From positions 160,001 to 224,000 of the IMG/VR virus record IMGVR_UViG_3300037424_000434: a stretch of 64,000 nucleotides of DNA; one strand, given 5' to 3'. The translations under genes and the position numbers were made by a program. Positions 48,961 through 54,395 of the stretch are shown piece by piece (position 1 is the stretch's first letter; each line of letters opens with the position of its first letter). This stretch comes from a virus (Duplodnaviria; Caudoviricetes). The notes beneath the pieces were generated by a model. The model was not told the origin of the DNA, did no database searches, and saw only the letters and a list, made by a program, of their open reading frames with translations.

Positions 48961-49221
48961 ATGATGGCAGATGATAGTTTAGCCCCTATCCAATTCAAGC
49001 ATATGACCGTGATAGCAAAACATGATCCCGGTGTTACTGGGAAGTACGAAGAAGGTGAAGTTTTGTGTGGTTGTGGCCGAGAATTCATGTACTCGATTCA
49101 GTATGAAGAAAATTTAAGACAAATTAATGATAGTTTGGTGTTTAGATGTCCTCGATGCTATGCAATGAGTCTAGAACAAACCGTTGGACTATTGAGTAAA
49201 GAGTGTAGTGAATTGGTGTAA
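48961..49221 (+). CDS. Zn-binding hypothetical protein
   Basis: CGCG and CPRC. Confidence 0.55.
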   Translation: MMADDSLAPIQFKHMTVIAKHDPGVTGKYEEGEVLCGCGREFMYSIQYEENLRQINDSLVFRCPRCYAMSLEQTVGLLSKECSELV

Positions 49222-49283
49222 ACGAGTAAGATAGGCGGCGATGGTGTAACAGACAGATAATCGTACGAGGAGACTCTTATATT

Positions 49284-49499
49284 ATGACTAAATCATTTTG
49301 CGGCAAATGTAAATATAGGCAAGGTAGATTCAAGAGTGAATCAAACTGCTCTCATCCCGCAAACATCAGAGAGGATGATGATTGGTATGGCGGAGTGAAA
49401 ATTTATGGAAAATGTCAAATCATAAACAAGGATAATAAATGCCCCAATTTTATGTGGATACCTTCTATGGACCCGAGGACAAAATATGACTTGGATTAA
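49284..49499 (+). CDS. Cys-containing hypothetical protein
   Basis: CGKC..C..C..C; GAGGAG RBS. Confidence 0.6.
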   Translation: MTKSFCGKCKYRQGRFKSESNCSHPANIREDDDWYGGVKIYGKCQIINKDNKCPNFMWIPSMDPRTKYDLD

Positions 49500-49788
49500 T
49501 ATTGAAGACCAAGAACCAGAAGAAGATAGAGAGCTGTTCTATTTTTTTGAGCATACTGGTGTATCCAAAGGCAAGTATCGCCGGACATATTACGACCCCG
49601 AAATCTGGGGGGATGGGTTGGGAGATTGTTATATGGATACTTTCTATGGGAGGGGGGGCTTTCTGTCCGACGATGTGACACACTGGATGTATGTCGATGG
49701 ACACGATTGGTATCCAGCTCCCCCAAAAGAATTTATTCAGGGAGTAGCAGTAAACGGCCTACCAATAAAAGCAGATATGGAAGATTAA
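49486..49788 (+). CDS. DUF551-like protein
   Basis: WINIEDQEPE ... DVTHWM motif. Confidence 0.65.
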   Translation: MTWINIEDQEPEEDRELFYFFEHTGVSKGKYRRTYYDPEIWGDGLGDCYMDTFYGRGGFLSDDVTHWMYVDGHDWYPAPPKEFIQGVAVNGLPIKADMED

Positions 49789-49871
49789 GCAATCAGGGTA
49801 TTGCACCTTCTTGGAAAGGAGTGGGTTCGGCAGAAACGCCGGATAGGATTCGAGTTCCTAGTCTTCCTCCA
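49779..49871 (+). tRNA. tRNA-Ser(GGA), atypical fold
   Basis: Same architecture as 44864; imperfect anticodon stem, loop TTGGAAA; U73-CCA. Confidence 0.65.
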
Positions 49872-49915
49872 TATTATATAAAATCAGGCTAAGAGCCTGT
49901 AAGGAACAAAATTGC

Positions 49916-50125
49916 ATGTCTAAATTTAAACATTACATAACAGCCCCAACAGATCAAATAGATGAGGCTACATATGAAGGTAATATAGGATTCGAGGAAA
50001 TGGTGGATTTTTATAAGAAATCCACTGAATCCGAATACAACAGTATGGAAGATGCTATTTCTAGAAATGATTGGGTTGCATTTAAAAAACTAATAAAAAG
50101 GGTAGTGGGGGTTAATCTAAAATAA
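49916..50125 (+). CDS. Hypothetical protein
   Basis: YEGNIGFEEMVDFY motif; AAGGA RBS. Confidence 0.6.
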   Translation: MSKFKHYITAPTDQIDEATYEGNIGFEEMVDFYKKSTESEYNSMEDAISRNDWVAFKKLIKRVVGVNLK

Positions 50126-50127
50126 GA

Positions 50128-50268
50128 ATGTCTGAATATATAAGAGTATGTTGTCCCCAATGCGACAGCGAAGAAATTGTACCGAAGTATGGAAACATTT
50201 TTGAGTGTCGGGATTGCGGGTATGTTGACGAAGAATACATTTTTGAAGATGTTGTTGTAGACGAATAA
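50128..50268 (+). CDS. 46-aa zinc-ribbon protein
   Basis: CPQCDS...FECRDCGY; not in ORF track. Confidence 0.6.
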   Translation: MSEYIRVCCPQCDSEEIVPKYGNIFECRDCGYVDEEYIFEDVVVDE

Positions 50269-50270
50269 AA

Positions 50271-50346
50271 GGACTTGTAGAACAATTGGCAGTTCGGGGT
50301 GCTCATAACACCAAGGTTTCAGGTTCGAGTCCTGACAGGTCCACCA
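50271..50346 (+). tRNA. tRNA-Met/Ile2(CAT)
   Basis: Cloverleaf with CCA, loop CTCATAA. Confidence 0.85.
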
Positions 50347-50354
50347 AATTTTAA

Positions 50355-50709
50355 GGGGTTGTAAAGGTTTCGACAGTCGTTGGGATGGAGATAACACGTG
50401 CAGTAGATGATTGTTGGCTACTTAAAAAATCAATCAAACAGATAAACGCTGAAGATAACTTCGCACTAGCGGCATAAGCCGCTTGTCGCTGTGACAACTC
50501 CTGATAGTCACTATAGCGGCATCATTAGTCAGGAAAAGCTGACCATGCTTAATGGTATGAAATACGGTTTTTTTTGGTTCATATCGCGTCACCGGGGAAG
50601 TTATGCTTGGCCGTATTTTCGAGAAAAAAGAGCGCCAAAGGCGAAACGCACGTAATGAATGTTACTTTTGAACAATGGTTGGACGTGGGTTCGACTCCCA
50701 CCAACTCCA
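50355..50709 (+). ncRNA. ssrA: tmRNA, tag (A)AEDNFALAA
   Basis: GGGGTTG..GGTTTCGAC 5' end, G3-U70, T-arm, tag ORF 50448-50477 ending ALAA-TAA; no encoded CCA. Confidence 0.93.
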
Positions 50710-50803
50710 TAATTAATGTGAGCCAAACCATGCGAAGGTGAATAGATACCACTGGATGGGAGCTTAGGCCGCGCTAAGAAGCCGCGCTAATAAGGATATT
50801 ATA

Positions 50804-51106
50804 ATGAAATGGCTTCAGTTTGTGATAGATGTTTATTGGCTCGTTATTGCTCTTATGTTTGTATCATGCACAGCGAACGCACTTGACGCAACTTTCACCA
50901 AAACCTATCAAACATCAAAAGGTACCATAACTTTCAATCACCAATCTCATTCAACATTGGCCGACTGTGTTGGGTGTCATGAGGGAGGTAAGTTGTTGGG
51001 GGGAGTGGTCAACAAGAACGTGGGGCATAATTATTGCAGGAGTTGTCACCAAAAAATGAACAGCGATTTTGCGCCGGTTATTTGTACTGGTTGCCATGTG
51101 AGGTAA
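50804..51106 (+). CDS. Triheme cytochrome c7 (PpcA family) with signal peptide
   Basis: Hydrophobic leader ending ANA; GTITFNHQSH, CVGCH, VGH, CRSCH, CTGCH. Confidence 0.9.
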   Translation: MKWLQFVIDVYWLVIALMFVSCTANALDATFTKTYQTSKGTITFNHQSHSTLADCVGCHEGGKLLGGVVNKNVGHNYCRSCHQKMNSDFAPVICTGCHVR

Positions 51107-51107
51107 G

Positions 51108-51683
51108 ATGAGTTATTTTTTAGATGCTTATTCCATAACCCTCCAACATGAGGGTGGATACGTAAATGATCCAGATGATGTTGGGGGTGAGACGTATAAG
51201 GGTATTGCACGAGCATACAATCCATCATGGGGTGGTTGGTTCGTTGTGGACGCATTGAGAGGATCTACTGACTTTCCAGAGTGTTTAACCGATAACAAAA
51301 CATTACAACTTGATGTAAGGAAATTATACAAATCCAAATATTTTGATCCATACCAAGGTGATGCTATGCCCAAAGATTTGGCATTAGAGATGTTCGATAC
51401 TGCCGTGAACATGGGTGTTGGTCGAGCGGTTACATTCCTCCAAAAAGCACTAAACGTGTTAAACCGAAATCAATTATTATATCCCGATATGGTGGAAGAT
51501 GGGGATTATGGACCAACAACCCACAAAGCACTTCAGGTACTATTAAACGAAAATGGCACTGAGGTATTGGTAAAAATGCTTAATGTGCTTCAGGGGATGC
51601 ATTATATTGAGTATATGAACAAATCACCCAAACAGGAAAAATATGCCCGTGGTTGGTTCTCGCGGGTTCAGATAGGAAAATAA
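51108..51683 (+). CDS. GH108 endolysin with peptidoglycan-binding domain
   Basis: HEGGYVNDPDDVGGETYKGI, FDTAVNMG, DGDYGPTT, YARGWFSR. Confidence 0.93.
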   Translation: MSYFLDAYSITLQHEGGYVNDPDDVGGETYKGIARAYNPSWGGWFVVDALRGSTDFPECLTDNKTLQLDVRKLYKSKYFDPYQGDAMPKDLALEMFDTAVNMGVGRAVTFLQKALNVLNRNQLLYPDMVEDGDYGPTTHKALQVLLNENGTEVLVKMLNVLQGMHYIEYMNKSPKQEKYARGWFSRVQIGK

Positions 51684-51684
51684 T

Positions 51685-51885
51685 ATGAATAAAACTGGTG
51701 ACAAAAGAATCAATATGGAAACGTATGTACCTGAAGTATATATTTTTGACCGTTGGATTAGTATGGAATGGGTTAGAGATGTGAAATCTGTGTATATTCT
51801 TGATATATATCAAATTCTTGCCAAAGAATTTGGTGAAAAATGGGTAGAAAAGGCAAAAGAATGTATCCAAAAATTGGACTGTTGA
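51685..51885 (+). CDS. Hypothetical protein
   Basis: 66 aa. Confidence 0.45.
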   Translation: MNKTGDKRINMETYVPEVYIFDRWISMEWVRDVKSVYILDIYQILAKEFGEKWVEKAKECIQKLDC

Positions 51886-51903
51886 CATAAATAGAAATGA
51901 CCC

Positions 51904-52035
51904 GTGAGGTCAAATAAAAAACAGACTTCAGTAACAGTGGATCGCAAAATTAAATGCGCCATATGCGGGACAGTTTGTAAAACAAGCGCAAAATTCTGCG
52001 GAAATTGCGGAACGAACTTGACATATCAATATTAA
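51904..52035 (+). CDS. 43-aa zinc-ribbon protein
   Basis: CAICGT...AKFCGNCGT; GTG start at 51904 or 51937. Confidence 0.5.
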   Translation: MRSNKKQTSVTVDRKIKCAICGTVCKTSAKFCGNCGTNLTYQY

Positions 52036-52046
52036 GAGCGTAAGAT
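52018..52046 (+). promoter_or_regulatory. Sigma70 promoter, TTGACA class
   Basis: TTGACA-N17-TAAGAT directly upstream of Y-like RNA. Confidence 0.65.
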
Positions 52047-52057
52047 GTAATACATAC

Positions 52058-52140
52058 AATGACGGTGGCGTAGAACAGGGATACTTCACATGACGAAAAG
52101 ACACCTTGCTCGTTTGATCCCCTGATTTGTAATTAACATT
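52058..52140 (+). ncRNA. Second Y-like RNA without tRNA-like domain
   Basis: ggtggcgtagaacagggatacttc resembles YrlA 5' ggtgtcgtaaattagagttacttc; cagggat/atcccctg stem. Confidence 0.55.
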
Positions 52141-52156
52141 TTTATAGGAAAAAGGC

Positions 52157-52408
52157 ATGAATGTGAAACAATTTTTCAGTGTACACGCAGAGTTACAAGC
52201 AGTGTTCTTTCGGGATGTTTGTGAGGGATATCTAGCCTCGTTTGTTGTTGTCGTGGGTGTATGTGGTGTTGTTTTGGAACTATTCAAACAAGCATTTATG
52301 TCCTTTACGACAAAATCAATCGAATTTGAGGTTCTACAGGATAAAAAGTATCAAGAAGAAACAGACTTTTTGTGTCAAAAACAAAAAGAGATGGATGAAC
52401 AACAATAA
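52157..52408 (+). CDS. Hypothetical protein
   Basis: 83 aa with one hydrophobic stretch. Confidence 0.45.
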   Translation: MNVKQFFSVHAELQAVFFRDVCEGYLASFVVVVGVCGVVLELFKQAFMSFTTKSIEFEVLQDKKYQEETDFLCQKQKEMDEQQ

Positions 52409-52428
52409 ATATATGAGGTAGGTACTAC

Positions 52429-52617
52429 ATGATTAAAGCATTTGGTGTTCCACGGTTCAATGGAGCAGGAAAAACGTATACAGCACCGGCAATGGTCGAG
52501 GCTGTTAATGTCCAGCTTGAACGATTGGGTTTAACAGGAAAAGACATAGTTTCGATTCAGATTGATGAAGAGTTTTACCATGTGTTTTATGCTGTTCCGG
52601 TAAAACCAACAGAATAA
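52429..52617 (+). CDS. Hypothetical protein
   Basis: 62 aa, GAGG RBS. Confidence 0.55.
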   Translation: MIKAFGVPRFNGAGKTYTAPAMVEAVNVQLERLGLTGKDIVSIQIDEEFYHVFYAVPVKPTE

Positions 52618-52637
52618 ACCCGACAAGGTGATGAAAC

Positions 52638-52670
52638 AAAGGTAACCTCTAACACGGGGTTACCTTTTTT
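52638..52670 (+). terminator. Intrinsic terminator
   Basis: aaaggtaacc / ggttaccttt plus T-run. Confidence 0.85.
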
Positions 52671-52713
52671 GTTTGGGGATAACTATATGATAGCAGTACA
52701 GGGAGGTTATTTT

Positions 52714-53172
52714 ATGATGAAAATAGCATTTTATAGGGCCAGCGCCGGTAACATGTTTGATAAAGCCATAAACCTGTGGACAGGCATGTATGGATATTCT
52801 CATGTGGAGTTGGTATTTTCTGATGGAGTAAGCTTTTCCGCTTCATCCAGAGATAATCTAGTGAGATTTGCGCGTATTAATTTTGTTCCAGACAGGTGGG
52901 AGTTTGTTGAACTACCGCTATTTAACAAAATAGACGAGGCAAAAATAAGAGCGCAAGCCGAAAACTTAGCGGGAAGGAAATATGATTGGAAAGGCATTTT
53001 TCTTTGGATGTTTTTGCCTCTCAAAAAACAAGACAATGATAGATGGTGGTGTTCTGAGATTGTTTCTTTTTTATTAAAAGAGTCTAATTATAGAGTACAT
53101 CCAAATAAAATGGCAAAACAGTGGAAGGTTGCTAGACAACCATGGCACATTAGTATATCATTTATGAAATAA
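52714..53172 (+). CDS. Permuted papain-like (YiiX/YaeF-type) protein
   Basis: YSHVELVF ... KYDW ... WWCSEIV; GGAGG RBS. Confidence 0.65.
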   Translation: MMKIAFYRASAGNMFDKAINLWTGMYGYSHVELVFSDGVSFSASSRDNLVRFARINFVPDRWEFVELPLFNKIDEAKIRAQAENLAGRKYDWKGIFLWMFLPLKKQDNDRWWCSEIVSFLLKESNYRVHPNKMAKQWKVARQPWHISISFMK

Positions 53173-53196
53173 TAATGTGATATGTGGGAGGGCTGT

Positions 53197-53655
53197 ATGG
53201 ATATTAGGTCTGACGGGAAATACCCAGCAAATAAATTATCCAATTTTGCTGGACATGGGTTTAACCTTGATGGTGTGGAAATTTCGTCTCTTGAGGGATT
53301 TCTTCAAAGTTTAAAATTTTCTAATCCAGATATGCAAGAAGAGGTGTGTGGGTTGGTTGGGTATGCCGCTAAAATAAAAGGCAAAGACAAGAACTGGCGT
53401 AGACGACAAATATTGTATTGGAGAGGATGTGAAATTAAAAGGAATAGTCAAGTATACCAAGATTTATTGGATCGAGCCTACATGGCATGTGCTACCCAGA
53501 GTGAGGGATTTAGGCGCGCATTGATTGCTTCTGGTACGGGATTGCTGACTCCTTCTATTGGAAGAAGAAAATCCAATGAGACTATCTTGACAACATCAGA
53601 GTTTTGTTCTAGACTCATGAGATTACGTGAGCAAATAAGAAACGGGGAAATATAA
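53197..53655 (+). CDS. NADAR-family hydrolase (T4 gp30.3-like)
   Basis: LSNFA..F.LDG.....EGFLQSLK...LYWRG...FRRALIAS...TILTTSEF. Confidence 0.8.
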   Translation: MDIRSDGKYPANKLSNFAGHGFNLDGVEISSLEGFLQSLKFSNPDMQEEVCGLVGYAAKIKGKDKNWRRRQILYWRGCEIKRNSQVYQDLLDRAYMACATQSEGFRRALIASGTGLLTPSIGRRKSNETILTTSEFCSRLMRLREQIRNGEI

Positions 53656-54395
53656 TGATTGGAATAGAAACTAGACCGGATGATCTGAAAAAGTATTTGG
53701 ATTCTGATTATCCGTTGTTGGACCGATTTAAAGCACTGGCACCGGGAACGTTTAGACATTCCCAAAATGTTGCAGCATTAACAGAAGCGATTGCCTCGGA
53801 CTTGGGGCTGGATGTTACCTTGATGAGAGTGGCAGCCACTTATCATGATATAGGTAAAACCGTTAATCCCATGTATTTTACGGAGAACCAGAACGGGGAA
53901 GCAAACCCCCATGATTTACTTGAACCCTTTGTTTCATATCAATTCATTACCCGCCATGTGGCCGATGGAGTGTTTATCCTGACTAACGAGACCGATATGC
54001 CACGACAGGTTTTGCAGATCATTTCTGAGCACCACGGCGATACTGTGTTGAAAGCTATTTTCAACAAAGCCGTCACCCAGAATATTGATAACTTTCGATA
54101 CAAAGCACCAAAACCATCCAATGAATATTCGAGTATTTTGATGATTGCTGATACAGTAGAAGCAACAGCACGAAGCATTTCGGACAAACTAACAACACCA
54201 GAAGAGAAGATAAGAGTGGTAAAAGACACTATTGAGAGGTTGAGGGATGACAAGCAACTTGATGAAATGAAGGTTGGAACCCTCAGACAGGTGCAAAACA
54301 GGCTCATACGGGAGCTTGATGGAATTTATCATACTCGTATTGATTATGATGGAGAAGTACAAAAAAACCAACTAAAAAGTGAGGTAACAAAGTGA
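53655..54395 (+). CDS. Stand-alone HD phosphohydrolase, PgpH/7TM-HDIG-like
   Basis: APGTFRHS, YHDIGK, YFTENQ..NPHD, EHHG, MIADTVEA; no TM segment. Confidence 0.85.
   Translation: MIGIETRPDDLKKYLDSDYPLLDRFKALAPGTFRHSQNVAALTEAIASDLGLDVTLMRVAATYHDIGKTVNPMYFTENQNGEANPHDLLEPFVSYQFITRHVADGVFILTNETDMPRQVLQIISEHHGDTVLKAIFNKAVTQNIDNFRYKAPKPSNEYSSILMIADTVEATARSISDKLTTPEEKIRVVKDTIERLRDDKQLDEMKVGTLRQVQNRLIRELDGIYHTRIDYDGEVQKNQLKSEVTK

What the first reader, a model, noticed from the sequence alone, without database searches (positions are those of the whole stretch)
50804..51106. Phage-encoded triheme cytochrome c7 (PpcA family)
Seen: a signal peptide ending ANA, three CxxCH heme sites and three further His in the spacing GxxxFxHxxH..CxxCH..H..CxxCH..CxxCH, i.e. 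all six axial ligands. Established: this is the PpcA/c7 architecture of Geobacter/Desulfuromonas periplasmic electron shuttles for extracellular electron transfer. Inference: the phage carries an auxiliary respiratory gene that could keep periplasmic electron flow and energy supply running during infection of a metal-reducing host. It sits in phage context between tmRNA and endolysin. I do not recall a described phage c7, but that needs a literature check.
Basis: partly seen in the sequence, partly recalled or inferred. Interest (0 to 1): 0.9.

Follow-up and report, generated by a model that had tools for sequence, protein, structure and literature searches.

The report
Phage-encoded triheme cytochrome c7
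A 236-kb T4-like sediment phage really does carry an intact, exported three-heme cytochrome c7 gene just upstream of its endolysin, and related uncultured phages keep the same gene pair, so it looks like a previously undescribed viral gene for periplasmic electron transport.

Summary
Window 50804-51106 (+) encodes a 100-aa protein with an N-terminal signal peptide, three CxxCH sites and three further His.

**What it is**
- It matches Desulfuromonas acetoxidans c7 over the whole mature length (E 1.8e-10).
- It folds as a c7 (pLDDT 87.5; TM 0.71-0.75 to PpcA-E).

**It is phage DNA, not a chimera**
- The record is a 98%-complete, 39%-GC T4-like phage.
- Contigs from two other studies bridge the tmRNA-to-c7 junction without differences.

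**It is conserved in phages**
- Eight further c7 clusters (38-49% identical in alignment A4) lie on phage-like contigs.
- Seven of these eight sit directly upstream of the orthologous GH108 endolysin.
- All 12 heme ligands are invariant, and dN/dS is about 0.2-0.3.
- All nine fall in one supported clade. All 17 sampled Desulfuromonadia genome c7s lie outside it.

**Limits**
- The phage has no heme-attachment genes, so it depends on the host.
- The nearest cellular relatives are Desulfuromonas-type c7s (37-42% identity). The profile hits 86% of sampled Desulfuromonadia genomes and 0 of 401 Pseudomonadota.
- It is not a PpcA equivalog (48 bits against a cut-off of 120).
- Host, timing of expression and physiological role remain inferred.

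**Novelty**
No phage c7 was found in INPHARED, PHROGs, BFVD or the searchable literature.

The parts
50271..50346 (+). tRNA-Met (CAT), first element of the conserved tRNA-Met / tmRNA / c7 / endolysin order
   Evidence: ARAGORN; Rfam. The same order is seen in relatives L010 and L011.
50355..50712 (+). Phage tmRNA, tag peptide AEDNFALAA
   Evidence: ARAGORN; Rfam RF00023 at 122 bits.
50792..50796 (+). Shine-Dalgarno AAGGA, 7 nt upstream of the c7 ATG
   Evidence: Read directly.
50804..51106 (+). Cytochrome c7 gene, 100 codons plus TAA
50804..50881 (+). Predicted Sec signal peptide (M1-A26, ending ANA before L27)
   Evidence: Read. AF2 helix at residues 2-25. Homologs have typical MKK + hydrophobic + AxA signal peptides. 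Not run through SignalP.
50939..50950 (+). H46-x2-H49 (FNHQSH): distal His ligands that align with H17 and H20 of D. acetoxidans c7
   Evidence: Alignment; invariant in 26 of 26 homologs.
50966..50980 (+). Heme site 1, CVGCH (C55-H59)
51026..51028 (+). H75, third distal His
   Evidence: Invariant. It sits one residue off the D. acetoxidans position, i.e. H-x2-C instead of H-x3-C, as in many Desulfuromonadia c7s.
51035..51049 (+). Heme site 2, CRSCH (C78-H82)
51083..51097 (+). Heme site 3, CTGCH (C94-H98)
51108..51683 (+). GH108 + PG_binding_3 endolysin. It starts 1 nt after the c7 stop, and its GAGG ribosome-binding site lies inside the c7 3' end. It is the conserved neighbour of c7 in related phages.
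   Evidence: Pfam; PHROG endolysin; synteny.
52638..52667 (+). First strong intrinsic-terminator-like hairpin downstream on the + strand; likely end of the transcription unit
   Evidence: No + strand terminator lies between c7 and the endolysin.

Best explanation
The gene encodes a working small periplasmic triheme cytochrome c7 carried by a lytic T4-like jumbo phage as an auxiliary metabolic gene.

Proposed mechanism:
1. The precursor is exported by the host Sec system, and its 26-residue signal peptide is cleaved after ANA.
2. The host's own cytochrome-c maturation machinery (Ccm or Ccs) attaches three hemes to the CxxCH sites. The phage has no such genes.
3. H46, H49 and H75 complete bis-His ligation.
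4. The roughly 74-residue holoprotein then acts like cellular c7/Ppc proteins: a soluble low-potential electron carrier between inner-membrane quinol oxidases and outer acceptors.
5. This adds to or replaces the host's periplasmic electron-carrier pool, so respiration and proton-motive force last until lysis.

The gene is not a recent pick-up. It has been inherited vertically, together with the adjacent endolysin, in a lineage of low-GC T4-like phages of sediments and waters. Some of these phages add a second c7-like gene or a class I monoheme cytochrome c at the same spot.

Shown: gene integrity, c7 sequence and fold, phage location, conservation and purifying selection, and lack of phage maturation genes.

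Inferred: export and cleavage, heme loading, electron-shuttle role, benefit to the phage, and a Desulfuromonadia-like host.
For: - **Sequence:** end-to-end match of the mature part to D. acetoxidans c7 (E 1.8e-10) and to PpcA-E. Pfam Cytochrom_CIII is above its cut-off. The best NCBIfam model is cytochrome c7.
- **Fold:** AF2 pLDDT 87.5. Top Foldseek PDB hits are almost all c7s, with TM 0.70-0.75 and probability 0.99-1.00.
- **Phage location:** 98%-complete 236-kb virus record with T4-like portal, protease and DNA polymerase, plus gp30.3. The gene's GC (42%) equals the local phage GC. Contigs from independent runs bridge the tmRNA/c7 junction with 0 differences.
- **Conservation:** c7 sits next to the orthologous GH108 endolysin on P0001, P0002, P0007, P0008, P0010/P0151, P0011 and P0013 contigs. 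P0003 is also on a phage-like contig.
- **Selection:** all 12 heme ligands are invariant. pN is 0.31-0.39 against saturated pS, with dN/dS 0.17-0.34 where computable. c7 identity (43-52%) tracks endolysin identity (62-75%).
- **Phylogeny:** one clade with support 95/81 holds all nine phage copies, and all 17 Desulfuromonadia genome c7s lie outside it.
- **Dependence on host:** no CcmF/CcsA or CcmE in the phage.
- **Extra cytochromes:** relatives carry further signal-peptide-bearing cytochromes at the same locus.
Against: - There is no direct evidence of expression; no RNA run was listed.
- Export, cleavage and heme attachment are untested.
- The query's signal peptide has an Asp in its hydrophobic core and is 4 residues longer than in homologs.
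- c7 proteins are stable and abundant in known hosts, so the benefit of a phage copy is not obvious.
- The host is unknown. Phage GC (31-41%) is well below most Desulfuromonadia loci (45-62%).
- Pfam Cytochrome_C7 itself is just under its cut-off (23.1 against 24.8 bits).
- The tight and conserved linkage to the endolysin could point to a lysis-related role rather than a metabolic one.
Confidence: 0.72

Rival explanations
1. The protein is a real periplasmic c7, but its role is tied to lysis or infection control rather than to boosting host energy metabolism. It might sense or set periplasmic redox state or proton-motive force to time holin triggering. It might drain electrons to change host physiology. 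It might act in exclusion of other phages.
For: c7 is immediately upstream of the endolysin in the window and in 7 of 8 related phage clusters. Gaps are only 1-57 nt and there is no terminator between the genes. In the window the endolysin's ribosome-binding site lies inside the c7 3' end.
Against: The whole region is simply syntenic in this lineage (tRNA-Met, tmRNA, SAM lyase, gp30.3), so adjacency may be inherited order. P0003 and the L039 cytochrome are not next to a GH108 gene. c7 matches no PHROG lysis family or any other PHROG family. No holin or spanin was recognised beside it. No precedent is known to me.
Confidence: 0.17
2. The N-terminus is an uncleaved signal anchor. The c7 domain would then be tethered to the outer face of the inner membrane, wiring a specific host quinol oxidase, rather than acting as a free shuttle.
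For: The query's N-terminal helix is long (residues 2-25 in AF2), strongly hydrophobic, and atypical compared with its homologs.
Against: A canonical A-x-A site (ANA) follows the hydrophobic core. Homologs have ordinary short cleavable signal peptides. Solved c7s are soluble proteins of about 70 residues.
Confidence: 0.07
3. Assembly chimera or host contamination: the c7 segment is bacterial DNA wrongly joined into a viral contig.
For: c7 is a typical cellular gene family, and the record is a metagenome assembly.
Against: Contigs from two other studies cross the tmRNA-to-c7 boundary with 0 mismatches. A separate 17.6-kb assembly spans the whole region at even depth. GC matches the phage. The same gene order appears on many independent phage contigs. 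Phage copies form their own clade.
Confidence: 0.02
4. A decaying relic: the ORF is intact but no longer makes a heme protein.
For: Its Pfam and NCBIfam scores are low compared with cellular c7s.
Against: All 12 ligand residues plus F44, G40 and P91 are invariant across homologs as low as about 31% identical (A1). Non-synonymous divergence is far below the saturated synonymous divergence. The model is confident.
Confidence: 0.02

Closest known systems
Desulfuromonas acetoxidans cytochrome c7 (c551.5; PDB 1EHJ/1HH5/1NEW) and Desulfuromonas-type c7s of Desulfuromonadia genomes
   Same: About 70-residue mature domain, three CxxCH sites, the G-x-V-T-F-x-H-x-x-H block and bis-His ligands. It aligns end to end (E 1.8e-10), with 37-42% identity to the best genome copies and the same predicted fold.
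   Different: The phage protein is encoded by a virus and lies in a separate clade. It has an F-T-K-x-Y lead-in, a 3-residue longer loop before heme site 3, and H-x2-C rather than H-x3-C before heme site 2 when compared with the solved protein.
Geobacter sulfurreducens PpcA-PpcE (periplasmic triheme cytochromes of extracellular electron transfer)
   Same: Same fold (TM 0.70-0.75), same heme count and ligand pattern, and a periplasmic signal peptide.
   Different: Only about 30-34% identity. NCBIfam CytC7_Geobact scores 48 bits against an equivalog cut-off of 120. PDB E-values are 1e-7 to 4e-5, against 1.8e-10 for the Desulfuromonas protein. It should not be called a PpcA ortholog.
[quoted passage not shown]
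   Same: A multiheme c-type cytochrome carried by a jumbo phage and read as an auxiliary metabolic gene.
   Different: It is a different cytochrome family (a membrane quinol dehydrogenase). [quoted passage not shown] The c7 here is old, diverged and lineage-specific in phages.
Classical phage auxiliary metabolic genes for energy metabolism (cyanophage psbA/petE, dsrC, amoC; from established knowledge)
   Same: A host-type electron-transport component kept under purifying selection in lytic phage genomes.
   Different: I found no earlier case of a c7/c3-class periplasmic multiheme carrier. This one also needs host post-translational heme attachment in the periplasm.

Membership tests
Cytochrome c7 (triheme class III cytochrome c; Pfam PF14522/PF02085) | Three CxxCH heme-attachment motifs in a domain of about 70 residues | tested here: met
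   CVGCH, CRSCH and CTGCH lie in a 74-residue predicted mature part.
Cytochrome c7 (triheme class III cytochrome c; Pfam PF14522/PF02085) | Three extra His at the conserved positions, giving bis-His ligation of every heme | tested here: met
   H46 and H49 align with H17 and H20 of the solved c7. H75 is one residue off H45. All three are invariant in 26 homologs.
Cytochrome c7 (triheme class III cytochrome c; Pfam PF14522/PF02085) | Significant sequence match to family models | tested here: met
   PF02085 scores 24.5 bits against a cut-off of 22.9. PF14522 scores 23.1, just under 24.8. phmmer against PDB c7 gives E 1.8e-10.
Cytochrome c7 (triheme class III cytochrome c; Pfam PF14522/PF02085) | c7 three-dimensional fold | tested here: met
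   AF2 pLDDT 87.5. Foldseek top hits are almost all c7s (PpcA-E, D. acetoxidans c7), with TM 0.70-0.75 and probability 0.99-1.00. The model contains no hemes.
Cytochrome c7 (triheme class III cytochrome c; Pfam PF14522/PF02085) | Export to the periplasm through a cleavable signal peptide | tested here: inconclusive
   The sequence shows n-, h- and c-regions and an ANA site, and homologs have typical signal peptides. No signal-peptide predictor was available.
Cytochrome c7 (triheme class III cytochrome c; Pfam PF14522/PF02085) | Covalent binding of three low-spin hemes and low redox potentials | not testable with these tools
   Needs expression, heme stain, UV-vis and redox titration.
PpcA-type c7 of Geobacter (NCBIfam NF043011 equivalog) | Score at or above the equivalog cut-off (120 bits) | tested here: not met
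   48.2 bits. In the tree the protein lies outside all PpcA-like genome copies.
Viral auxiliary metabolic gene | Encoded inside a bona fide viral genome, flanked on both sides by viral genes, and not an assembly artefact | tested here: met
   98%-complete 236-kb virus record. T4-like hallmark genes. tmRNA and tRNAs upstream; endolysin and gp30.3 downstream. Independent contigs bridge the junction.
Viral auxiliary metabolic gene | Maintained by selection in phages | tested here: met
   Nine phage-context clusters in one clade, invariant ligands and dN/dS 0.17-0.34.
Viral auxiliary metabolic gene | Expressed during infection and changes host metabolism | not testable with these tools
   No RNA run was listed, and there is no cultured host.
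Phage lysis cassette component (holin/antiholin/spanin) | Match to a lysis protein family, or transmembrane topology beyond a signal peptide | tested here: not met
   No PHROG match at all. The only hydrophobic segment is the N-terminal signal sequence.

The most novel reading that the evidence does not exclude
A whole lineage of low-GC T4-like phages from sediments and waters carries its own vertically inherited periplasmic electron-transfer cassette. The cassette is always a c7, sometimes with a second c7-like protein or a class I monoheme cytochrome c, and probably shares a transcription unit with the endolysin. This would be the first viral gene set for anaerobic respiration or extracellular electron transfer, most likely acting in Desulfuromonadia-like hosts. 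It may link the host's respiratory state to the timing or yield of lysis.
Probability: 0.4. Interest if true: 0.8.

Novelty: new variant of a known kind. Interest (0 to 1): 0.66.

Why it matters
c7/Ppc cytochromes are the main periplasmic electron carriers of sulfur-, iron- and electrode-respiring Desulfuromonadia. If phages supply their own copy, viral infection could directly change rates of metal and sulfur reduction in sediments and bioelectrochemical systems. That process is currently missing from models of viral effects on anaerobic element cycling.

The phage clade also offers a set of naturally diverged, minimal three-heme proteins (as low as about 38% identity with identical ligands) for studying how redox properties are tuned.

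The gene is small and can be tested directly by standard heterologous expression.

Tried and rejected
- **INPHARED phages:** megablast and tblastn of the region and protein gave no match.
- **Word-index protein search:** no candidate.
- **IMG/VR pattern scans:** the single protein found nothing. The 4-sequence profile found only L039, a 4-heme relative in another phage.
- **Genome-contig scan:** The narrow one returned only two loci.
- **Host from tmRNA tags:** phage AEDNFALAA and ADTFEYAQAA against Desulfuromonadia ADNYNYAVAA-type tags. These are too generic to decide.
- **Oxygen physiology from RNR class:** no NrdD, NrdB or RNR large-subunit family was found in the phage, and the 1086-aa ORF at L009:3109-6369 has no Pfam hit. 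Inconclusive.
- **Late promoter:** TATAAATA is 8-fold enriched upstream of genes in this phage, but none lies before c7, so timing cannot be read from sequence.
- **Lipoprotein reading of 'VSC':** rejected because the Cys is not conserved in homologs.
- **dN/dS for most pairs:** synonymous sites are saturated, so only an upper-bound type of statement is possible.
- **AU test holding only the nine verified phage rows together:** rejected (p 0.011). The clade also contains unlabelled rows and two cellular rows, so this does not argue against a phage-associated clade.
- **Metagenome scan:** 60 of 61 loci were ordinary cellular c7s, so it added no new phage copies.

Full report
**1.

The ORF at window 50804-51106 (+) encodes 100 residues.
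- An AAGGA Shine-Dalgarno sits 7 nt upstream of the ATG.
- The protein starts with a basic and then hydrophobic N-terminus that ends in ANA before L27.
- It carries CVGCH (55-59), CRSCH (78-82) and CTGCH (94-98), plus H46, H49 and H75.
- In the whole 235,765-bp genome it is the only ORF with more than one CxxCH.
- The tmRNA (50355-50712) and a tRNA-Met lie just upstream.
- A GH108+PG_binding_3 endolysin starts at 51108, one base after the c7 stop, and its GAGG ribosome-binding site lies inside the c7 3' end.
- No + strand terminator separates the two genes. The first strong one is at 52638-52667.

**2. It is a c7**

- phmmer against all PDB sequences puts Desulfuromonas acetoxidans cytochrome c7 first. 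The match is E 1.8e-10, query residues 33-100 against chain residues 4-68. PpcC, PpcB, PpcD, PpcE and PpcA follow.
- Pfam Cytochrom_CIII passes its cut-off. Cytochrome_C7 is just under (23.1 against 24.8 bits).
- The best NCBIfam model is CytC7_Geobact, but at 48 bits against an equivalog cut-off of 120. So this is a c7 in the broad sense, not a PpcA ortholog.
- An AlphaFold2 model from 26 homologs has pLDDT 87.5.
- Its Foldseek PDB hits are almost all c7 proteins at the top, with TM 0.70-0.75 by target and probability 0.99-1.00.

**3. It is phage DNA, not a chimera**

- The window is bases 160001-224000 of an IMG/VR virus record that CheckV rates 98% complete, at 39% GC.
- The genome has a T4-type portal, prohead protease and family-B DNA polymerase, and gp30.3.
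- The polymerase is only about 28% identical to that of any cultured phage.
- TATAAATA, the T4 late-promoter consensus, is 8-fold enriched upstream of genes.
- The c7 gene's GC (42%) matches its surroundings.
- Logan contigs from two other studies cross the tmRNA-to-c7 boundary with no differences (X2 record 9, 50597-50825; X3 record 19, 50708-50858).
- A separately assembled 17.6-kb contig from X1, which may be the source sample, covers 49000-53700 at even depth.
- The source is a sediment metagenome.

**4. The gene is conserved in a phage lineage**

A full HMMER pass over 1.84 billion cluster representatives found 213 relatives, 14 of them at E ≤ 1e-10. I looked up the contigs of the closest ones.
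- P0001, P0002, P0007, P0008, P0010/P0151, P0011 and P0013 all sit directly upstream of the orthologous GH108 endolysin. They lie on low-GC (31-41%) contigs with ThyX, SAM lyase, gp30.3, HD, gp32 and HNH genes.
- P0003 is on a phage-like contig without an adjacent GH108 gene.
- L010 and L011 keep the full tRNA-Met / tmRNA / c7 / endolysin order.
- Among six of these phage loci, c7 identity is 43-52%, the endolysin 62-75% and gp30.3 72-73%. This is the pattern expected for long vertical co-inheritance, with c7 evolving faster.
- All 12 heme-ligand residues are invariant, as are F44, G40 and P91.
- Non-synonymous divergence (pN 0.31-0.39) is far below the saturated synonymous divergence (pS 0.65-0.94). 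dN/dS is 0.17-0.34 where it can be computed.

Some relatives add more cytochromes at the same spot.
- L014 has a second c7-like gene whose third site reads C-X8-CH.
- L015 has a signal-peptide-bearing class I monoheme cytochrome c.
- A different low-GC phage contig in IMG/VR (L039) carries a 4-heme c3/c7-like protein that is not next to an endolysin.

**5. Relation to cellular c7s**

- In a maximum-likelihood tree of 92 small triheme proteins, one clade (UFBoot 95 / SH-aLRT 81, 22 rows) holds all nine phage-context proteins.
- All 17 c7s taken from Desulfuromonadia genomes lie outside that clade.
- Two rows inside it look cellular: P0005 (L045, 62% GC, next to LemA and DUF2207) and P0036 (L022). 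That subclade could be the donor or a recipient.
- A profile built only from the phage copies (A4) matches at E ≤ 1e-12 in:
  - 216 of 251 sampled genomes of the class containing Pelovirga (Desulfuromonadia);
  - 12 of 401 across that phylum's sample;
  - 0 of 401 Pseudomonadota.
- The best cellular hits are Desulfuromonas-type c7s at 37-42% identity.
- ESM Atlas neighbours are mostly Thermodesulfobacteriota.
- A pattern-limited scan of JGI metagenome contigs returned 61 loci. Only one (the L010 contig again) has the c7-endolysin arrangement. The rest are higher-GC cellular loci.
- Two of those cellular loci are Desulfuromonas-type c7s on 41-43% GC contigs, so low-GC c7-bearing bacteria do exist.

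**6. Mechanism**

- The phage has no CcmF/CcsA or CcmE homolog and no other heme protein.
- A functional product therefore requires host Sec export and host cytochrome-c maturation. This limits hosts to diderm bacteria that already make periplasmic c-type cytochromes.
- From established knowledge of c7/Ppc proteins, the holoprotein would shuttle electrons across the periplasm.
- I take the most likely role to be topping up or replacing this carrier pool, so that respiration and proton-motive force persist through a probably long latent period.
- The tight, conserved linkage to the endolysin leaves open a lysis-related role. However, the region is syntenic as a whole, c7 matches no PHROG lysis family, and no holin or spanin was recognised beside it.
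- Expression timing cannot be read from sequence. No late promoter precedes c7 here.
- Four relatives share a conserved sigma-70-like element upstream of c7.

**7. Novelty**

- There was no match in 50,697 INPHARED phage records.
- There was no PHROG family.
- There was no similar fold in BFVD (best E 0.75).
- No paper describing a phage c7 or c3 turned up in six literature searches.
- The same stretch was noted twice by first readers of this scan, on this genome only.

**8. Limits**

- The host is unknown.
- The tmRNA tags are uninformative.
- The RNR-class check was inconclusive.
- No RNA data were listed.
- No signal-peptide predictor was available.
- The tree rests on only 93 alignment columns.

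Noticed in passing
L014:5064-5456 (+): A related phage has a second c7-like gene (130 aa, with a signal peptide) between c7 and the endolysin. It has two CxxCH sites, and its third heme site reads C-X8-CH (CSGGMGGGSCH), an unusual long heme-binding motif.
   Followed up: partly
L015:9674-9991 (+): A related 31%-GC phage carries a signal-peptide-bearing class I monoheme cytochrome c (CKICH; Pfam Cytochrome_CBB3) immediately upstream of its c7 and endolysin. A large radical-SAM and sugar-modification gene block lies further upstream.
   Followed up: partly
L039:5947-6288 (+), IMG/VR UViG_3300033146_001603: A different low-GC phage-like contig encodes a 113-aa protein with four CxxCH motifs (c3/c7-like). 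It is not next to an endolysin, so small multiheme cytochromes occur in more than one phage genome context.
   Followed up: partly
L010:8340-8385, L012:1-30, L014:4670-4715, L021:300-345 (approximate): A conserved element, gtcgggtt...N...tagtgttaaataRgggtaac, lies about 25-70 nt upstream of c7 in four relatives. It looks like a sigma-70 promoter with an extended -10. It is absent upstream of c7 in the window.
   Followed up: no
window 50768-50790: A 10-nt direct repeat, GCCGCGCTAA, occurs twice (50768-50777 and 50781-50790) in the 91-nt spacer between the tmRNA and c7.
   Followed up: no
window 52669-53172 (+): A 167-aa ORF between the endolysin and gp30.3 matches PHROG 1128 ('enoyl-CoA hydratase/carnithine racemase-like', moron/AMG category; E 1e-29) but has no Pfam hit.
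   Followed up: no
L009:3109-6369 (genome 227109-230369, beyond the window): A 1086-aa ORF has no Pfam family at E ≤ 0.001. An earlier scan note places an intein-containing RNR here, but searches of the genome for NrdD, NrdB and the RNR large-subunit family found nothing.
   Followed up: partly
whole genome G000: TATAAATA (the T4 late-promoter consensus) occurs upstream of 23 genes, an 8-fold enrichment, including large structural genes. This very distant T4 relative probably keeps T4-type late transcription.
   Followed up: partly
window 50256-50412: In all three sediment runs the contig depth spikes over the tRNA-Met. Many short contigs from other organisms match only 50301-50354 with 2-5 differences. 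This is a conserved tRNA segment shared with other community members, not a feature of the phage.
   Followed up: no
L045 (62% GC) and L022 (42% GC): Two cellular-looking contigs (LemA+DUF2207, and an SBP_bac_3 neighbour) carry c7s that nest inside the otherwise phage-associated clade. This hints at gene flow between phage and cell in one direction or the other.
   Followed up: partly
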